Assembly (NCBI GenBank): GCA_000165345.1
Contig: CM000431.1
Location: 608,001-672,000 of the forward strand
DNA length: 64,000 bases
Direction: 5' to 3'
Shown here in pieces: positions 7,236 through 17,449 of the stretch (position 1 is its first letter; each line of letters opens with the position of its first letter). Position numbers and translations under genes: made by a program. The notes under the pieces are model-generated. The model was not told the DNA's origin and did not search any database. It saw nothing but the letters and a program-made list of their open reading frames with translations.

Positions 7236-9824
7236 ATGGCTAAAGGAACATTTCAATGTTTTGGTTTTTCTCCAAAGCTTTTGGAGTCAATAAAGATTAT
7301 AGGCTATTCTCTTCCAACTCCGATTCAGCGTAAATGTTTTCCGTCTATTTTAGCAGGTAGAGATGTGGTTGCTATGGCAAGAACAGGTTCTGGTAAAACT
7401 GCGGGTTTCGTATTGCCTATGATTGAACGATTGGGCTGCTCTCATTCGCAAATTGTTGGAATTAGGGGAGTTATATTGTCTCCAACTAGAGAGCTTGCAT
7501 TACAGACTTATCGTGTTGTGCGAAAGCTTGCCTGTAAAACGAATTTGGTTGTTTGCGCACTAACAGGTGGCTCATCGCTTGATAGACAGTTTGAATCATT
7601 ATCTGGAAATCCAGATATTGTAGTTGCAACTCCAGGAAGATTATTCCATCACATTATAGAAGCAGGGCTTTCATTAATAGCTGTCAAAATAATTGTTCTT
7701 GATGAGGCAGACCGACTATTTGAAATGGGATTAGCCAGCCAAATTGAGAAAATATTGGAGTCCATCCCAAAGAATAGGCAATGCGTATTAGTATCAGCTA
7801 CAATGCCTACAGCTCTTGCATCATTTTCTAAAGTTATGTTAAACGAGCCGGAAGTTATTCAAATTGATTCAGATTATATATTAAGTGAAACATTAAAGTT
7901 AACATTTCTCTTTGTTAGAGAGGATGAAAAGCTTGCATCCTTACTATACTTGCTTAGAAACACTATTCCTTCTCACGAAAGAGCTATTATTTTTTGCGCA
8001 ACTAAACATCATGTTGATTATATCGTAAAAATTCTTGAATCAAACAACATTATAGTTAGTTATATTTATGGAAATATGGATCAAGAGGCACGTACAATGC
8101 ATTTGAACACTTTTAGAAAGAATAAGAGTAGAGCGTTAATAGTAACTGACATTGCTGCAAGAGGCGTGGATATACCAATGATCAAATATGTCATAAATTT
8201 TGATTTTCCATTGAGCCCAAAATTATTTGTTCATAGGACTGGAAGAACAGCAAGGGCAGGACAACATGGCAGAGCATTTTCGCTTATTACTTCCAGAGAT
8301 TTACCATACACGATTGACCTTTGTCTGTTTCTTGGCCTTAAAATGACTACGTTAACAAGTAAACAGACTACAGATTCATCAAATTATAGCTTAAACACAG
8401 AAAATAGAGTTGAAGCTGGCATAAGAGACGATGATATTCATGAAGAAGGGATATCTTTTATTAAACCAGCTTCTTTAAATGATTTTCATGGAGAGTCAAG
8501 ATTAATTTTAGCTGGTTTCCCTGATCTTACACTGGAGATAGAATCTATTGAAAGAGTTCTTACTGAGAATTCTGAAATAGAGAGGTGTAGGAGGTCAATG
8601 GAATCTGCGTATTTATTGTACTTGAAAACCAGGACACCATCTTCAAAAGAAAGTTTAAAAAGATCACGGGAACTTTTAGAAAAGTGCGGAGGAGTATCAA
8701 AAATATTAATGTCTATTCATCCAGATTTAAATATAGATACCAATGAAACTAATTTAAATATCGTAACTTTTCAAAATCTCGGAGTTATCAGCGACCCTCT
8801 TTTGGACCATTTGAAATCATTTAGACCAACTGAGAACAAAACTCACAATAAGTATGGGTGCCTTAACCAAGCTACTGGAAAGATGGTTTTAAAGTCATCA
8901 ATCAAGATGAAAAAAATTAAAGATATGGGCAACGTTGTAAAATCAATTCTAAGTGAAGATAAATTTGCAATTGGCACCTCTATTTCTGAGAGTCAAAATG
9001 GTATTTCAGACGAAATATCTTCAAATAATAATATTTCACAGAATTTTGTGAATAAAAAAAGAAAGCCTAAGAAACAGTGTAATAGAGTTAAAGAATCAGA
9101 ACATTTCTTTATACCTTATAAAAATAGTGAAGGGGAAGTTTCTAGATCGACTGGATTACAATTAGAGTCATCAAGTTTTGATATTAATCCTGATGAAGAG
9201 GGCGAGATGAAAAGACAAAAGTGCGTTAGAAAATGGAACTCTAAAAGGAAAAGGTATGAGCTAATCGATATTTCTAAAAAAAATTCCATCAAAAAGTTTA
9301 ACGAAAGTGGTATTAAGGTTAAAGGAGAGCTAAAGTGTACGGGGCAATATAAGAAATGGAAGGCAAATACAAATTTAAAGATCCAGAATGTTGGTGAAAT
9401 CGAGGATACAGAACTTAATAAAACTATTCGTAATAATGGGTTTAAAGATAAATATAATACGAGCGATATTAACTCTTCATTTGACTATTCGAACGTACAT
9501 GATAAACATAAAGGGATCATTGAGGCTATAAGTAAAGGTATTAAGCTAACTCACAAACAGAAACGTATTGCAAGACGCATTGGAATAATCAAGGAAAAAA
9601 TTGTTAATAAAAGCAAAAGTTTGCAAAATGAAATAAGAACTCCGCAGCAGATTCTTAAAAAACGAGCAAATGACGTCAAACAAAGAATGAAAAATGATTT
9701 AGAATTTAGAAGAAAGCAGCTAGCAAAAAAAAATAAGGAGTTTGCAGAGAAGAATTTTAAAAAAGTTATTCAAAAGGGGAGACCGAACAGGAGTAAAGTT
9801 GTGCTAGTTGAAAGGCGTAGATAG
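7236..9824 (+). CDS. DEAD-box ATP-dependent RNA helicase, DDX54/Dbp10-like, with a long basic C-terminal extension.
   Basis: The 862-aa ORF has the Q motif (PTPIQ), motif I (AMARTGSGKTAGF), PTRELA, TPGR, DEAD (VLDEADRLFEMG), SAT and motif VI (HRTGRTARAG). Confidence 0.85.
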   Translation: MAKGTFQCFGFSPKLLESIKIIGYSLPTPIQRKCFPSILAGRDVVAMARTGSGKTAGFVLPMIERLGCSHSQIVGIRGVILSPTRELALQTYRVVRKLACKTNLVVCALTGGSSLDRQFESLSGNPDIVVATPGRLFHHIIEAGLSLIAVKIIVLDEADRLFEMGLASQIEKILESIPKNRQCVLVSATMPTALASFSKVMLNEPEVIQIDSDYILSETLKLTFLFVREDEKLASLLYLLRNTIPSHERAIIFCATKHHVDYIVKILESNNIIVSYIYGNMDQEARTMHLNTFRKNKSRALIVTDIAARGVDIPMIKYVINFDFPLSPKLFVHRTGRTARAGQHGRAFSLITSRDLPYTIDLCLFLGLKMTTLTSKQTTDSSNYSLNTENRVEAGIRDDDIHEEGISFIKPASLNDFHGESRLILAGFPDLTLEIESIERVLTENSEIERCRRSMESAYLLYLKTRTPSSKESLKRSRELLEKCGGVSKILMSIHPDLNIDTNETNLNIVTFQNLGVISDPLLDHLKSFRPTENKTHNKYGCLNQATGKMVLKSSIKMKKIKDMGNVVKSILSEDKFAIGTSISESQNGISDEISSNNNISQNFVNKKRKPKKQCNRVKESEHFFIPYKNSEGEVSRSTGLQLESSSFDINPDEEGEMKRQKCVRKWNSKRKRYELIDISKKNSIKKFNESGIKVKGELKCTGQYKKWKANTNLKIQNVGEIEDTELNKTIRNNGFKDKYNTSDINSSFDYSNVHDKHKGIIEAISKGIKLTHKQKRIARRIGIIKEKIVNKSKSLQNEIRTPQQILKKRANDVKQRMKNDLEFRRKQLAKKNKEFAEKNFKKVIQKGRPNRSKVVLVERRR

Positions 9825-9859: not shown

Positions 9860-10147
9860 TTAATTTATTCTTTTTTTAATTTCATTAAGGGATTCTTTAT
9901 TGAAAATTACTTTAATTTTCAATGAACAGCTTTCACATTGTAAAACTACGGAACTATCATTCCCTTTAGCTTCTGAATTGACTATCTCTTCAAGATAAGG
10001 AAGCGTTGTCCAGAATATGTCGCCGCATGAGCAATTATATGATAGAGTTCCCGAATAAATATCCAACCATTCCAACTCATCAATGTATATGACTTTCCAT
10101 ATAAATCCGTTTTTATCATTCATGGAAAGGTTAGAATTAGCAATCAA
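9860..10147 (-). CDS. DPH3: Diphthamide biosynthesis protein 3 (DPH3/Kti11), a CSL-type zinc finger.
   Basis: The 95-aa ORF contains ...YNCSCGDIFWTTLPYLEE...LQCESCSLKIKVIF, the CSL zinc-finger signature. The true start may be the internal Met (MNDKNGF...). Confidence 0.8.
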   Translation of the reverse strand: MIANSNLSMNDKNGFIWKVIYIDELEWLDIYSGTLSYNCSCGDIFWTTLPYLEEIVNSEAKGNDSSVVLQCESCSLKIKVIFNKESLNEIKKRIN

Positions 10148-10154
10148 TGCAAAT

Positions 10155-11342
10155 CTAAATTGTTTTATTTAAATATTTTTCCGATATAACAGAAATTGGA
10201 TCAATCTTAATTAAAGACTCAAATACTTCGAACGGTTCTGTCGGCTCATAAAATTCTAAACTTGATTTTTTCGAATCACTATTAAATATCAGAGACAATG
10301 CAGAAATTGAAAGAAATGTATGTAGCGGATCTGAATGACCTTTGTTGTCGGTATTAAAAGGAGATTTTTGAAAACCGCCATAAATATTGTTTTGATGGCA
10401 TAGAATTCCATTTATCAATATTTTTAATATTTTTGAGTTAATGATTGATGAACAGTCAATATTTCTATTAATAGTAATATTTTTCACGATCTTAAGACTT
10501 GCAAATACCCACCATGAGTAGCATACATCACATTTTTTCCCAATGCGTCCATTAAAGCAATACGATTGATACTTAGTATTTTCGTGACTTTCAGAAGCGA
10601 TTATTCTCTTTAATAGCCACCTGTTTAGTCTGTTAAAATTAAACAACAAATCAATTGAGTTATTTTTCGTTATTTCTTTGATTATTGCTATCGATGAAAC
10701 TGCGCAGAAAGTATATCCTGCATGGGACTCGTCTTTATAGCGTTTACCGAATCCACCATCTTTGTTTTGCATATTAACCAATAGCTTTGTTAGTTCTGAA
10801 ATTCTAAAGACTGAATCTTGTTTTAAATCAGGATAGTTCGATAAATAGTATACAAGTAGTGTTGAATAAATAAACCTGACGTCAAATTGTCTTAAGCAGT
10901 TTTTGGAGTTATTGATATATATTTTTTCACCTCTCAAGGCAATTAGGCTTTTTATAAAAGCAGTTAATTCATATTTGTTATCTTCAGTAATTTTATTGTT
11001 TAATATTGTCTTTATTTGTATCCCACTAAGTATAGAAAGAATGGAAGGTCTAACAAAATCAAATGGATTAAGAGAATAAAATTTTAACTTAAAGTTATCT
11101 ATAAGTAATTCACGTTCACATTTTTTTAATAAATGTAAAAACTTATTTCTAGCATTATGGAGTTGATCGCAAATATTAAATTGAATTAAATCTGAGCAGC
11201 ACAAAACCCAATAAATACCATGTATAAATACTGAACTCAGCTGGATTTTAGATGAATCATAGCTGTTTATTGCATCATTTGTTACAAAGATTAGATATTT
11301 TTTATGTAGTTCCAGGTCGAATTTTCGTGCTGCATTATACAT
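10155..11342 (-). CDS. Protein prenyltransferase beta subunit, most similar to Rab geranylgeranyltransferase beta.
   Basis: The 395-aa ORF carries prenyltransferase alpha-alpha toroid repeats: DGGFG, HAGYTFCAVSSIA, GRIGKKCDVCYSWWVFASL and GGFQKSPFNTDNKGHSDPLHTF (compare RABGGTB ...DVCYSWWVLASL...GGF...D.FHT). Confidence 0.75.
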   Translation of the reverse strand: MYNAARKFDLELHKKYLIFVTNDAINSYDSSKIQLSSVFIHGIYWVLCCSDLIQFNICDQLHNARNKFLHLLKKCERELLIDNFKLKFYSLNPFDFVRPSILSILSGIQIKTILNNKITEDNKYELTAFIKSLIALRGEKIYINNSKNCLRQFDVRFIYSTLLVYYLSNYPDLKQDSVFRISELTKLLVNMQNKDGGFGKRYKDESHAGYTFCAVSSIAIIKEITKNNSIDLLFNFNRLNRWLLKRIIASESHENTKYQSYCFNGRIGKKCDVCYSWWVFASLKIVKNITINRNIDCSSIINSKILKILINGILCHQNNIYGGFQKSPFNTDNKGHSDPLHTFLSISALSLIFNSDSKKSSLEFYEPTEPFEVFESLIKIDPISVISEKYLNKTI

Positions 11343-11409
11343 TATATCTTTTTTATTCCCAATGAATTATGCCGCCGCAACTATTCTAAATCACTTTGAA
11401 TTGAATAAT

Positions 11410-11912
11410 ATGAAAAAGACTCAAATATCAAACGGTAAGTAATTCAACTATCACTATATGTTATCATTCTGTCTCAGTTGCAAGTGGGATTTTGTCTAGA
11501 TCGGTTTTGAAAGGAGACCCTGTTTTTTCGCAAGAAGACTTGTCTAGCAGAAAAATAATTAAAAATGAAAGCAAAAAGCACAGTAAAAGAAACGTAAGTT
11601 ATCTTCATGATAAAAACTTCTAATAACTTATATAAATAGGCTAATGAAAATATTTTGAACACAATTTTTTTAAAACAAACCGCAAAGAATCAAAGGGAGA
11701 AGAGTTTGAAGCAGTTAGCGACGAAAGGAGTCGTAAAGTTCTTTAATATGATAGTAAACTATCAGGAAAATTCAAACATCAAAGCAAGTAAAGGCACTAG
11801 TAGTCCGAAAAATGCAGGACATTGCACAGAAACTAGGAAGGTAAAAAACGTGGAGTCCAACATTAAACCAAATAGATTCGGAACAATTGTTGGAATGCAT
11901 TCAGATAGGTAA
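11410..11912 (+). CDS. RRP15-like pre-rRNA processing protein. Three exons: 11410..11434, 11478..11593, 11640..11912.
   Basis: Missed by the ORF track. Introns are 43 and 46 nt, both with GTAAGT donors, and acceptors CTCAG and AATAG. The spliced product contains ...LKQLATKGVVKFFNMIVNYQ..., matching the conserved RRP15 core (LQRIATRGVVQLFNAVQKHQ). Exon 1 is only 25 nt (MKKTQISN). Confidence 0.45.
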
Positions 11913-11936
11913 TGATGACGAAACTAAATTACTCTA

Positions 11937-14900
11937 CTAATGTTTAGCAATTCCTATTGCGTCTAAAACTATATCCCAACAGTAATTATCTATTATATTG
12001 TTAATGCATTGTTCAAACGAATATCTAACAGTATCTTCCCTCAAAGCAGTAAACTTTTCCAGATTAGTGAAAATAATTTTCAATTCATCCTGATCTATAT
12101 AGTAAGTCTCACTTTCTATTAATCTCGTGGCAAACTTCATGTATTGACTTGAAATGGTTATTATAGACTTGAGTGCATGCCATATATCTGTCACAATCTG
12201 TTCTTCATATGCTGAAAAGATTAATTGTAGATTTTCATTGGTATTGAGCAAGTAAGCATCAAAATAATTTCTAATCTTATAGAGTGGCTTCTTTCCAATT
12301 ATTACACATTTTGTAAGAGCTGATATTTCAATCAGTGTATTTGGTAGAAGAGGAGCATAAAATAGCTTCTTTGCAGCAGATATAGCCAGACTATTAATGG
12401 CAGATACATGATCTGAACGATGAAATAATAAATCTCCAGCTTTATATTTATTTTCTTGCAAGCGATTTATTAGATACATTGTGCATTTTAGTGATTGCAA
12501 TATGTTTCCGCTAGACTCTAATTTATAAATTATTGCCTCGAGCAACCAATTCAGCGGTATCCCCAATTTATCGACTAAGAACTTCCACTTTTCATCATTT
12601 AAGTAATCTTCGGGATTAGAATAATCGGGATTCTCTTGTATATTTCTCATAATAACGCAATTAAGAAGATAATAAAAGTCTGAGTTCATATTAGTATGCA
12701 TTATGATAAAAACTGCCCATTCCCACAAACCAAGAATTTCTAGTTCCTCTATAAGTATTAAGTTTAATTTATTTGTAGGTGTAATCTCATTACTATTGCA
12801 GATACTGTTGTGATAGAACGTGAGGGCCCTTGCAATTAGCCAATTAAATGAAGAGAATTTGATAGAGCCGAAGTTGTTCAATCGAAATAGCTCTACCTGT
12901 CTAGAATTTTCATCGCCAAAGAAGAATTTAATTATTTGAAATTGTATCTGCTCAAATACTTGTTTTTTGCCTACCTCTGATGGACTTATGTTAATAGGAT
13001 CATCTGAATCAATTAATTTTCCCAATTTTTGTGTATTATCAATTAAAGAGGCGTTTTTCATTTTTAGTAACCTTTCACCAAGCTTTGAATTTGTTGAATA
13101 ATTTGCAGATAGGAATACGTTATTTTGCCATTCGTATAAAAAACCATCCGCAGATGCATCTATATTAGATATTGTTTTGTATATTCTATTTGAATAAGAA
13201 GTTAGATCCGAAACAAGACCGATTTTTGACCACCACTGCATGTTTTCCATCATCTGCAAAATAGACGTTTTATTATTTCCAATGGACAAGAACAACGACG
13301 CAGTCCTTGGAATCGTCAAATATGATAAACTTGGGCCATTTCTAACTAGATCAAGTAAGTTTCCGTTTACAATATTATTCAAGAGAAGGCTAATTCTTTC
13401 TTCATGTAAACATTGAGAATTTTGTTTGTCATCACCAAACCTAATCACTGGAATGTCATTAATCACAATCTTCATCCACCAGGAAATCAGTTCTCTTAAA
13501 TTAGACTCGAAACGCTTTTCAGATGGATTATTCAAATTTTTAATTATTAATTCCATTATTCCACCAACCAAACCAAATGTTTGTTCAAAATATTTTAATC
13601 GCTCAAAATTTAAAGAATTAAACTTGAATCCAGATAAATGCGAATAAATTTCAACTTCATTTTTTGTTATGCTCCACAGGAGGAAAATAAGTTTTATTAT
13701 TGATTCGATTGAAACTCCAGAACAATTATTACTTGTTTTATTTCCTATTATCTCAAAATATAGCCTAAACCAGGCAGAAATCAACCTTCGGGAATAACCC
13801 AAATTGTTTATTGAATCTTTAGTTACGGATCCTGTCAGGTTATTTATTCTTAATAGAGTAATCGATGTGTTATAGTCGCTAACACCTTGAATATCTTTAC
13901 GAAATGATCTATGTGGTACTACAACAAAACTATTTGAGCCAATATACATACCACTTCTGAAACAGATTCCATTATAAGCAGATTTCTTTAAGCTATTGTC
14001 TTTTTCCACAATGCTTTTAATTTCTGAGTACAAACTAAAATTATATTGGCTCTTCATTACAAAAAAATGACCTTTATACTGTTCTTGTTTAGAACTTCGA
14101 AGAAAATGATTTTCCTGGTCGGAGACATTAAAATTAGTTTCTTTTGTCGCAAGAGCACTACAAGGTTCTTTAAAGTGAGATAAAGAATTATCTTCACTCA
14201 AAAAACCATATTTAGAAAAATGTGTGACCTCAAATTTCCATTCCCAGGTAATAGTATCAAGCGAAATAAATCTTGCACCCATTTGCTCTGTGTAAGACTT
14301 AATTTGTTTAACACGATTACTGTTAAATTCGTCTATCTCTTGTGGATCTTTAGAGGGTATAGCTCTCTTTGGTTTGCAATTCTTGAGTGTTATAATAGCT
14401 TTTTTATTTAATCCTTCGCCAATTGGAATAGAGGAGTCTCCATCACCATATACCGACACACATAGAGGTTCAATGGAAACAACTGAATCAAGATTAATCC
14501 CACGTAAATCAGTAACTCCAGGCCAAACGATCTCCCCAACTCCTTCTCTAACTATTTTGAAGTCTTCCACGACGGCAAGTCTCTCTTCTGAAAATGTTTT
14601 TAATAATTCTATTGATGGAATACAAAAGTAGTCATGCTTGGTGAGTATTGGGGTCAGGGATTCAATAACAAATTCTTTTTGCTTCCTTATATAGGACTTA
14701 ACTAGATCAGATGGGATGCTATCTATCAACTGATCTGGCCTTCTAGTAATAGGTCTAGGTGTTGTAAGACCAATGGAGCTACGTGCCTGACGTTCATTAC
14801 TAACAGCCGAAATAGAATTTACTGAGTTTCTATGTTGGTTTAAATATGGAGTTCTTGCTGCATTATTACTTTCATTAACTACCCTACCAATTGAAGTTCT

Positions 14901-17354: not shown

Positions 17355-17449
17355 TTTGTTTCAATTAATTGGGAAAAATTCCGTGTCGTATAGCATCTGC
17401 CCCACTTAAGGTTGCCGCTTTATGGCGGTGTTTTTATACTATAGACATT

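What the first reader, a model, noticed from the sequence alone, without database searches (positions are those of the whole stretch)
11410..11912. Small three-exon RRP15-like gene between two minus-strand genes, overlapped by a spurious antisense ORF
The track shows only an 85-aa + ORF and a 62-aa - ORF. Two GTAAGT introns of 43 and 46 nt connect a 25-nt first exon to a product containing LATKGVVKFFN, the RRP15 signature. The ATG is only 67 bp from the divergent prenyltransferase ATG. The stop is 24 bp from the convergent Nup98-96 stop.
Basis: partly seen in the sequence, partly recalled or inferred. Interest (0 to 1): 0.5.

Follow-up and report, generated by a model that had tools for sequence, protein, structure and literature searches.

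The report
Known three-exon Cryptosporidium Rrp15 gene

Summary
The window is Cryptosporidium parvum chromosome 3. It is 100% identical to CP044420.1 over the 8,503 bp compared.

At 11410-11912 (+) there are three exons: 11410-11434, 11478-11593 and 11640-11912. They are separated by GTAAGT...AG introns of 43 and 46 nt. Splicing gives a 137-aa protein that passes Pfam Rrp15p (38.9 bits, cut-off 27). That protein is letter-for-letter identical to deposited C. parvum proteins named Rrp15p (QOY42587.1, WKS76982.1, WRK31472.1, KAL5369587.1, UniProt F0X561).

Both introns sit at the same positions in eight Cryptosporidium species, out to C. muris. Their lengths vary freely, while the exons show third-codon-position substitution bias. 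The flanking prenyltransferase and Nup98-96 genes are conserved, and the 67-bp and 24-bp spacers are as stated. The 62-aa antisense ORF carries stop codons in three of the four other species aligned over it and has no Pfam match.

The gene was missed in the 2004 annotation. It was reported as new gene cgd3_new_08 (Rrp15p) in the 2015 reannotation.

One point stays open. The parvum clade has an in-frame ATG 48 nt upstream (11362), which one C. hominis model uses (153 aa). It is absent in four more distant species, so 11410 is the conserved start.

Verdict: observation confirmed, interpretation supported, already known, low interest.

The parts
11410..11434 (+). Exon 1 (25 nt): ATG plus MKKTQISN and the first base of codon 9. 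The intron is in phase 1.
   Evidence: Exon 1 is 25 nt in seven species and 28 nt in C. muris. All eight species have A at -3 of the ATG.
11435..11477 (+). Intron 1, 43 nt, GTAAGT...CAG.
   Evidence: The donor and acceptor are conserved. Length is 42-65 nt across species, including a 1-nt indel in C. ubiquitum. Retaining it gives an immediate in-frame stop.
11478..11593 (+). Exon 2 (116 nt), residues 9-47, including the conserved N-terminal block VASGILSRSVLKGDPVFSQE.
   Evidence: This block is identical at protein level between C. parvum and C. ubiquitum. Across exon 2 there are 30 nucleotide substitutions between the two species, split 4/8/18 by codon position. It aligns to the ILS...DP block of human and yeast RRP15. 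There is no in-frame ATG between the upstream stop at 11411 and the exon, so splicing from exon 1 is required.
11594..11639 (+). Intron 2, 46 nt, GTAAGT...TAG.
   Evidence: It is at a conserved position in eight species, with length 46-92 nt. Retaining it gives TAA TAA in frame in C. parvum.
11640..11912 (+). Exon 3 (273 nt including the TAA stop), residues 48-137. It holds the Rrp15 core helix and a genus-conserved C-terminal NRFG motif.
   Evidence: Exon 3 alone scores 35.7 bits against Pfam Rrp15p. AlphaFold predicts a helix at residues 62-95, with 10-residue block mean pLDDT of 72-91.
11715..11747 (+). LATKGVVKFFN, the most conserved block of the Rrp15 family.
   Evidence: It aligns to human IATRGVVQLFN, yeast IAQKGAVKLFN and Chaetomium IAQRGVVKLFN. 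A74, G77, V78, V79, K80 and N83 are invariant in the alignments.
11343..11409 (.). 67-bp divergent spacer shared with the prenyltransferase beta-subunit gene. It is presumed to be a bidirectional promoter plus 5'UTRs. It contains GCCGCCGC at 11371-11378.
   Evidence: GCCGCCGC occurs only once in the 64-kb window. The CCGCC core is conserved in seven intestinal-clade species. Promoter function is inferred, not tested.
11362..11364 (+). In-frame upstream ATG at -48, an alternative start that would give 153 aa. An out-of-frame ATG at 11369 opens a 6-codon uORF.
   Evidence: The C. hominis UdeA01 model P0007 uses it. It is present only in parvum, hominis, tyzzeri and meleagridis. It is absent in ubiquitum, canis, felis and muris; canis, felis and muris have an in-frame stop upstream of the conserved ATG. 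It has C at -3, whereas the 11410 ATG has A.
11913..11936 (.). 24-bp spacer between the convergent stop codons of Rrp15 and Nup98-96.
   Evidence: The spacer is 1-69 bp in other species. I infer that the 3'UTRs must overlap the neighbouring gene.
11474..11662 (-). 62-aa antisense ORF with a GTG start; spurious.
   Evidence: It is interrupted by stop codons in C. hominis, C. meleagridis and C. ubiquitum. It has no Pfam match. It spans intron 2 and exon 2 of the real gene.

Best explanation
This is the Cryptosporidium parvum orthologue of the ribosome-biogenesis factor Rrp15 (yeast Rrp15p, human RRP15). It is encoded by a three-exon gene on chromosome 3 between the prenyltransferase beta-subunit gene and the Nup98-96 gene.

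Shown here:
- Two short U2-type GT-AG introns (43 and 46 nt) must be removed to join a 25-nt first exon to the rest.
- The 137-aa product contains the two conserved Rrp15 blocks: the N-terminal ILS...DP block and the ATKGVVKFFN helix.
- The model matches current public annotation exactly.

Inferred from what is established for yeast and human Rrp15: the protein binds early nucleolar pre-60S particles as part of the Ssf1/PPAN-Rrp15-Rrp14/SURF6 module. That module holds rRNA root helices and domain VI in an immature arrangement. It is released when the DEAD-box ATPase Dbp10/DDX54 remodels helix H61.

The Cryptosporidium protein is a minimal version, 137 aa against 250 in yeast and 282 in human. 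It is reduced to about the Pfam core and lacks the long N-terminal extension.
For: - Splicing arithmetic and in-frame stops when either intron is retained.
- Pfam Rrp15p: 38.9 bits against a cut-off of 27, covering residues 13-117, which includes exon 2.
- The protein is identical to deposited C. parvum proteins named Rrp15p. 137-aa orthologues exist in C. hominis, C. tyzzeri and C. meleagridis.
- The window is 100% identical to C. parvum chr3 over 8,503 bp, and the annotated gene span is the same 503 bp.
- GTAAGT (GTATGT for C. muris intron 1) and AG are conserved in eight species. Intron lengths vary in non-multiples of 3. Exon substitutions are biased to third positions: 22/29/57 against C. 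ubiquitum.
- Prenyltrans / Rrp15 / Nup98-96 gene order is conserved out to C. muris.
- A profile of the Cryptosporidium orthologues hits only RRP15 chains significantly in the PDB: human 8fkp_NG E = 2.7e-8, Chaetomium 8i9r_Ch E = 5.5e-4, yeast 6c0f_w E = 9.6e-3. The human and yeast alignments span both conserved blocks; the Chaetomium alignment covers only the helix block.
- Isaza et al. 2015 (PMC4637869), Suppl. Table S2, lists PF07890 Rrp15p in new gene cgd3_new_08. Its reported identity to the C. hominis orthologue, 0.954, equals the 146/153 I count for this locus. That paper required RNA-seq or cDNA support for new models.
- Baptista et al. 2022 (PMC8744675) state that introns in the IOWA-ATCC annotation, the source of QOY42587.1, are 100% RNA-seq supported.
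- Function of the family.
Against: - No transcript data for this locus could be inspected here. Splicing and the transcription start rest on comparative evidence and on general statements in the annotation papers.
- Sequence similarity to yeast and human Rrp15 is weak outside the core helix. A single-sequence phmmer search against the PDB gives only E = 0.0073 to human RRP15.
- The protein lacks about 100 N-terminal residues present in yeast and human, so partner contacts may differ.
- Whether C. parvum has Ssf1/PPAN and Rrp14/SURF6 was not checked.
- The AlphaFold model is of low overall confidence (mean pLDDT 63) apart from one helix.
Confidence: 0.93

Rival explanations
1. Same gene, but in C. 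parvum translation starts at the in-frame upstream ATG at 11362. This gives a 153-aa protein with a 16-residue N-terminal extension (MNYAAATILNHFELNN), as in the C. hominis UdeA01 model and probably the 2015 cgd3_new_08 model.
For: - The frame is open from 11362 to 11410 in parvum, hominis, tyzzeri and meleagridis.
- The C. hominis UdeA01 annotation uses this start.
- The 0.954 identity reported in 2015 fits a 153-aa model (146/153) slightly better than a 137-aa model (131/137 = 0.956).
Against: - The ATG is absent in C. ubiquitum, C. canis, C. felis and C. muris. The last three have an in-frame stop 6-24 nt upstream of the conserved ATG.
- C. ubiquitum has indels in the spacer that do not preserve the frame.
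- The context is weak, with C at -3, against A at -3 for 11410 in all eight species.
- It lies only 19 bp from the neighbour's ATG, so the transcript would have to start inside the prenyltransferase gene or its 5'UTR.
- An out-of-frame ATG at 11369 follows immediately.
- Four later C. parvum annotations choose 11410.
Confidence: 0.12
2. There is no splicing. Only the last-exon ORF (the 85-aa track ORF, or a shorter ATG-initiated part of it) is expressed, and the upstream 'exons' are a chance arrangement.
For: - Exon 3 alone already passes the Pfam threshold at 35.7 bits.
- Automated gene callers on metagenome and Logan contigs produced such last-exon-only products: P0010 (65 aa), P0011 (85 aa) and P0014 (108 aa).
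Against: - The 85-aa ORF begins with TTG, which is not a normal eukaryotic start. The first in-frame ATG in exon 3 is M84, downstream of the conserved motif.
- The exon 2 peptide is highly conserved with third-position bias, and it aligns to human and yeast RRP15.
- Exon 1 and the splice sites are conserved in eight species.
Confidence: 0.01
3. The 62-aa minus-strand ORF (11474-11662) is a real small protein gene overlapping Rrp15.
For: It is open in C. parvum and C. tyzzeri.
Against: - It has a GTG start.
- It has stop codons in C. hominis and C. meleagridis, and a stop plus a frame shift in C. ubiquitum.
- It has no Pfam hit.
- Its composition is what the reverse complement of an AT-rich coding region would give.
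Confidence: 0.01
4. Intron 2 is retained as an alternative, giving a second functional isoform, as the C. ubiquitum GenBank model (152 aa) implies.
For: In C. ubiquitum, intron 2 is 48 nt and open in frame. The deposited model reads through it.
Against: - In C. parvum, retention gives TAA TAA in frame.
- GTAAGT...AG is conserved in C. ubiquitum too.
- The 16 inserted residues have no counterpart in any other species.
- Intron length varies between species in non-multiples of 3.
Confidence: 0.04

Closest known systems
C. parvum Rrp15p as already annotated (QOY42587.1 on CP044420.1; WKS76982.1; WRK31472.1; KAL5369587.1 'CPHLJ_3g2355'; UniProt F0X561_CRYPV; 'cgd3_new_08' of Isaza et al. 2015)
   Same: The 137-aa sequence, the 503-bp gene span and the neighbouring genes are identical.
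   Different: Nothing differs. The 2015 model probably used the upstream ATG, giving 153 aa.
Yeast Rrp15p (PDB 6c0f chain w; 250 aa) and human RRP15 (PDB 8fkp chain NG; 282 aa), Pfam PF07890
   Same: It shares the two conserved blocks: the N-terminal ILS...DP block and the A-[TQ]-[KR]-G-[VA]-V-[KQ]-[LF]-[FL]-N helix. It passes the Pfam gathering threshold, and RRP15 chains are the only significant PDB hits.
   Different: It is about half the length. It lacks the roughly 100-residue N-terminal extension and most of the C-terminal tail. It has a genus-specific C-terminal NRFG..VGMH motif. Its role in the pre-60S particle is untested in Cryptosporidium.
Other genes added to the C. parvum annotation only after transcript-based reannotation (74 new genes in Isaza et al. 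2015; 1,926 updates in Baptista et al. 2022)
   Same: It is a small gene with a tiny first exon in a genome where about 90% of genes lack introns. ORF-based calling therefore misses it.
   Different: Its introns (43 and 46 nt) are shorter than the reported mean of about 99 nt.

Membership tests
Rrp15 family (Pfam PF07890 Rrp15p) | Scores above Pfam's curated gathering threshold. | tested here: met
   38.9 bits against 27, E = 1.2e-9, residues 13-117 matched to profile positions 22-129 of 140.
Rrp15 family (Pfam PF07890 Rrp15p) | Conserved core helix motif A-[TQ]-[KR]-G-[VA]-V-[KQ]-[LF]-[FL]-N. | tested here: met
   LATKGVVKFFN aligns to the human, yeast and Chaetomium motifs. The predicted helix at residues 62-95 has 10-residue block mean pLDDT of 72-91.
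Rrp15 family (Pfam PF07890 Rrp15p) | N-terminal conserved block (ILS...DP[IV]) upstream of the helix. | tested here: met
   The exon-2 block GILSRSVLKGDPVFSQ aligns to yeast AILSSHL..KDPIMARNK and to human KVLNKKTPESKP. It adds only about 3 bits to the Pfam score.
Rrp15 family (Pfam PF07890 Rrp15p) | The best hits among characterised proteins are Rrp15 and nothing else. | tested here: met
   The profile search of the PDB gives the three RRP15 sequences at E <= 0.01. The next hit is CRIF1 at E = 0.63.
Rrp15 family (Pfam PF07890 Rrp15p) | Nucleolar location, component of early pre-60S particles with Ssf1/PPAN and Rrp14/SURF6, and required for 60S maturation. | not testable with these tools
   Known for yeast and human. 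There are no Cryptosporidium data.
Spliceosomal GT-AG introns | GT...AG termini, removal restores a single open frame, and retention breaks it. | tested here: met
Spliceosomal GT-AG introns | Position conserved among species while length and sequence drift without regard to reading frame. | tested here: met
   Intron 1 is 42-65 nt and intron 2 is 46-92 nt in eight species, at the same codon positions.
Spliceosomal GT-AG introns | Junction-spanning transcript reads. | not tested
The annotation papers state RNA-seq support in general terms only.

The most novel reading that the evidence does not exclude
In the parvum/hominis/tyzzeri/meleagridis clade, a lineage-specific in-frame upstream AUG (11362) and an overlapping 6-codon uORF (11369-11389) lie in the 67-bp bidirectional spacer. 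Depending on where transcription starts, they could give two Rrp15 isoforms (153 and 137 aa) or uORF-mediated translational control of a ribosome-assembly factor. Separately, the Dbp10/DDX54 gene lies 1.6 kb away, so the enzyme that ejects Rrp15 from pre-60S particles is genetically linked to it.
Probability: 0.08. Interest if true: 0.25.

Novelty: already known. Interest (0 to 1): 0.08.

Why it matters
It matters little for biology. The gene, its exon structure and its family assignment are already in public databases, and Rrp15 is a conserved eukaryotic housekeeping factor.

It is useful as a check on method. A reader working from raw sequence recovered a gene with a 25-nt first exon. The original 2004 annotation missed this gene. 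Automated callers still truncate it to the last exon on metagenome contigs. Two deposited models, from C. hominis UdeA01 and C. ubiquitum, describe it differently.

The two minor annotation discrepancies are the start codon in C. hominis UdeA01 and the retained intron in the C. ubiquitum model. Both could be corrected.

Tried and rejected
- Full-text searches for 'cgd3_2355' and for 'Cryptosporidium' plus 'Rrp15' found no paper. The link to the literature came only from a supplementary table.
- The word-indexed protein search found only two clusters. The exhaustive HMMER search was needed to reach C. canis, C. felis and C. muris.
- A single-sequence search of the PDB gave only a weak human hit, E = 0.0073. 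The profile search gave clear hits.
The run with A4 gave a low-confidence model (pLDDT 63, pTM 0.24) with one confident helix. I did not run a fold search because a single helix would match anything.
- I considered whether the GC-rich GCCGCCGC element is an E2F-like site. Published C. parvum motifs are DTTGSCGCCH and TTTGGCGGGAAV. By my own comparison by eye, not a computed match, the window element resembles these but is not an exact match. I left it as a passing note.
- GTAAGT occurs 35 times in the window against about 25 expected. The hexamer alone is therefore not evidence. The frame-joining and the conservation across species are.
- Supplementary files of Baptista et al. 2022 are not held, so gene-specific RNA-seq support could not be read.

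Full report
**What is in the sequence**

The region 11100-12200 was read directly and ORFs were listed. One is an 85-aa plus-strand ORF (11655-11912, TTG start). The other is a 62-aa minus-strand ORF (11474-11662, GTG start).

The proposed gene model is as follows:

| Part | Coordinates | Length | Notes |
|---|---|---|---|
| Exon 1 | 11410-11434 | 25 nt | starts with ATG |
| Intron 1 | 11435-11477 | 43 nt | GTAAGT...CAG |
| Exon 2 | 11478-11593 | 116 nt | |
| Intron 2 | 11594-11639 | 46 nt | GTAAGT...TAG |
| Exon 3 | 11640-11912 | 273 nt | ends in TAA |

Joining the exons gives 414 nt in one frame and a 137-aa product:
MKKTQISNVASGILSRSVLKGDPVFSQEDLSSRKIIKNESKKHSKRNANENILNTIFLKQTAKNQREKSLKQLATKGVVKFFNMIVNYQENSNIKASKGTSSPKNAGHCTETRKVKNVESNIKPNRFGTIVGMHSDR

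Leaving either intron in place produces in-frame stops.

The neighbours are a 395-aa minus-strand ORF ending at its ATG at 11342 and an 1805-aa minus-strand ORF whose stop ends at 11937. The first matches Pfam Prenyltrans at 155 bits. The second matches the Nup98-96 autopeptidase and Nup96 domains. The spacers are therefore 67 bp and 24 bp, exactly as stated.

**Identity of the window and of the gene**

The spliced protein scores 38.9 bits (E = 1.2e-9) against Pfam Rrp15p PF07890, whose curated cut-off is 27. The match covers residues 13-117, so it reaches into exon 2. Exon 3 alone scores 35.7 bits.

A protein search returned 'Rrp15p [Cryptosporidium tyzzeri]', 137 aa and 96% identical, and a C. 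ubiquitum protein.

An exact-sequence look-up showed that this very 137-aa sequence is already deposited for C. parvum. The accessions are QOY42587.1, WKS76982.1, WRK31472.1, KAL5369587.1 ('CPHLJ_3g2355') and UniProt F0X561_CRYPV, and it is named Rrp15p. There are 137-aa orthologues in C. hominis and C. meleagridis.

The encoding contigs are C. parvum chromosome 3: CP044420.1 (GCA_015245375.1) and CM109963.1. Their annotated gene span is 503 bp, flanked by the same Prenyltrans and Nup98-96 genes at 67 and 24 bp. The window is identical to both records at all 8,503 compared positions. In CP044420.1 the gene is at 622455-622957.

**Comparative test of the exon and intron model**

I fetched the orthologous loci from seven more species:
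- C. hominis, C. tyzzeri, C. meleagridis and C. ubiquitum
- C. canis, C. felis and C. muris, found through the exhaustive profile search

Gene order Prenyltrans(-) / Rrp15(+) / Nup98-96(-) is the same in all of them.

I fitted the deposited proteins back to the DNA. C. canis, C. felis and C. muris have the same three-exon structure, with both introns at the same codon positions.
- Exon 1 is 25 nt in seven species and 28 nt in C. muris.
- Intron 1 is 42-65 nt and intron 2 is 46-92 nt.
- Donors are GTAAGT, or GTATGT for C. muris intron 1. All acceptors are AG.

In the five-species DNA alignment, the introns of C. ubiquitum differ from C. parvum by 1-nt and 2-nt indels, whereas the exon 3 deletion is a whole codon. 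Exon substitutions are biased to the third codon position:
- 6/11/23 against C. meleagridis
- 22/29/57 against C. ubiquitum
- 4/8/18 within exon 2 alone, against C. ubiquitum

The exon-2 peptide VASGILSRSVLKGDPVFSQE is identical between C. parvum and C. ubiquitum, although exon 2 as a whole is 26% diverged at the nucleotide level.

In the frame of exon 2 there is no ATG between the upstream stop at 11411 and the exon. This conserved coding segment can therefore only be translated by splicing from exon 1. The N-terminus M-x-K-x-K-I-S-x-V-A is itself recognisable in C. canis, C. felis and C. muris.

**The antisense ORF**

The 62-aa minus-strand ORF is interrupted by stop codons in C. hominis and C. 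meleagridis. In C. ubiquitum it is both interrupted and frame-shifted. It has no Pfam match.

**Start codon**

C. parvum, C. hominis, C. tyzzeri and C. meleagridis have an in-frame ATG 48 nt upstream (11362), with an open frame down to 11410. The C. hominis UdeA01 annotation uses it, giving 153 aa (P0007).

This ATG is absent in C. ubiquitum, C. canis, C. felis and C. muris. In the last three an in-frame stop lies 6-24 nt upstream of the conserved ATG. All eight species have A at -3 of the conserved ATG, whereas 11362 has C at -3. An out-of-frame ATG at 11369 opens a 6-codon uORF (read directly).

The conserved start is therefore 11410. Whether 11362 is ever used in C. parvum depends on the transcription start, which I could not examine.

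**Family membership and likely mechanism**

A profile of the Cryptosporidium orthologues was searched against all PDB chain sequences. It hit:
- human RRP15 (8fkp_NG), E = 2.7e-8
- Chaetomium Rrp15 (8i9r_Ch), E = 5.5e-4
- yeast Rrp15 (6c0f_w), E = 9.6e-3
- next, an unrelated protein at E = 0.63

The yeast and human alignments cover both the exon-2 block and the ATKGVVKFFN helix. The Chaetomium alignment covers only the helix.

AlphaFold2 with the 11-sequence alignment gives a low-confidence model (mean pLDDT 63). It has one confident long helix at residues 62-95 and a short helix at 8-14. This is the extended, largely unstructured character expected of an assembly factor that folds on its partners.

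From published cryo-EM work (bioRxiv 10.1101/2023.11.01.565222; 10.1101/2023.03.14.532478):
- Rrp15 forms a trimeric module with Ssf1 and Rrp14 (human SSF1/PPAN and SURF6).
- The module bridges rRNA domains I, II and VI and traps root helices in early nucleolar pre-60S particles.
- It is released when Dbp10/DDX54 remodels H61.

I infer the same role here. This step is inference from family membership and was not tested.

The Cryptosporidium protein is roughly the Pfam core only: 137 aa against 250 in yeast and 282 in human.

**Prior knowledge**

Isaza et al. 2015 (PMC4637869) reannotated C. parvum Iowa with full-length cDNA and RNA-seq and added 74 genes. New models had to be supported by TopHat read mapping together with a Cufflinks or MAKER prediction. 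[quoted passage not shown] The table of orthologue pairs gives identity 0.954 to CHUDEA3_new_08. I count 7 differences in 153 residues between the C. parvum and C. hominis UdeA01 versions of this locus, which is 0.954. This is therefore that gene.

Baptista et al. 2022 (PMC8744675) is the paper describing the C. parvum IOWA-ATCC assembly and annotation. I take this to be the GCA_015245375.1/CP044420.1 record, from which QOY42587.1 derives; that link is from my own knowledge, not a tool result. The paper states that its introns are 100% supported by RNA-seq.

The reported mean intron length is about 99 nt, and about 10.8% of genes have introns. Two introns of 43 and 46 nt in one 503-bp gene are at the short, dense end of the range, but they are not anomalous.

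**Verdict**

The finding is already known and annotated. Interest is low. The only residual uncertainties are the transcription start, the possible use of the clade-specific upstream ATG, and the untested biochemical role.

Noticed in passing
window 7236-9824 (+): An 862-aa DEAD-box helicase with a DBP10CT domain (35 bits against a cut-off of 27), i.e. the Dbp10/DDX54 orthologue, lies only about 1.6 kb upstream of Rrp15. In yeast and human this enzyme triggers release of the Rrp14/Rrp15/Ssf1 module from pre-60S particles. The adjacent helicase gene is present in C. ubiquitum with the DBP10CT match. It is probably coincidence in a compact genome.
   Followed up: partly
window 11371-11378 (within the spacer 11343-11409): GCCGCCGC is the only occurrence of this octamer in the 64-kb, 32% GC window. 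Its CCGCC core is conserved about 35 nt upstream of the Rrp15 ATG in seven intestinal-clade species. By eye it resembles the E2F-like motifs reported as the commonest C. parvum upstream elements but does not match them exactly. A similar CCGCCATAA sits at 17420-17428 (-), about 66 bp upstream of the Nup98-96 ATG.
   Followed up: partly
L003:4001-4503 (C. ubiquitum LRBP01000012.1): The deposited C. ubiquitum model (OII74204.1 / XP_028875397.1, 152 aa) reads through intron 2. There the intron is 48 nt and happens to be open in frame, which inserts 16 residues (VSCIYEKETLNDLYKK) with no counterpart elsewhere. GTAAGT...AG is intact, so this is probably an annotation error.
   Followed up: yes
L006:1501-2051 (C. 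hominis UdeA01 LN877949.1); window 11362: The C. hominis UdeA01 model (CUV05121.1, 153 aa) starts at the clade-specific upstream ATG, only 19 bp from the prenyltransferase ATG. Other C. hominis annotations give 137 aa.
   Followed up: yes
proteins P0010, P0011, P0014 (Logan/ENA contigs): Gene calls of 65, 85 and 108 aa on short metagenome or SRA-assembly contigs are last-exon-only fragments of Cryptosporidium-like Rrp15. They repeat the truncation seen in the ORF track.
   Followed up: partly
window 11865-11909 (residues 123-137): A C-terminal motif K-P-N-R-F-G-x-[IV]-V-G-M-H is conserved across Cryptosporidium; R126 and F127 are nearly invariant. It lies outside the Pfam Rrp15p match, which ends at residue 117, and its function is unknown.
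   Followed up: no
window 9860-10123 (-): An 87-aa CSL zinc-ribbon protein (Pfam PF05207, 54 bits), by my reading Dph3/Kti11-like, sits between the Dbp10 and prenyltransferase genes. It is separated from them by about 35 bp and 31 bp, which shows the extreme gene density of this region.
   Followed up: no
L008:2020-2022 (C. felis); window 11913-11936: The convergent Rrp15 and Nup98-96 stop codons are 24 bp apart in C. parvum and only 1 bp apart in C. felis. The 3'UTRs must therefore run antisense into the neighbouring coding region.
   Followed up: no
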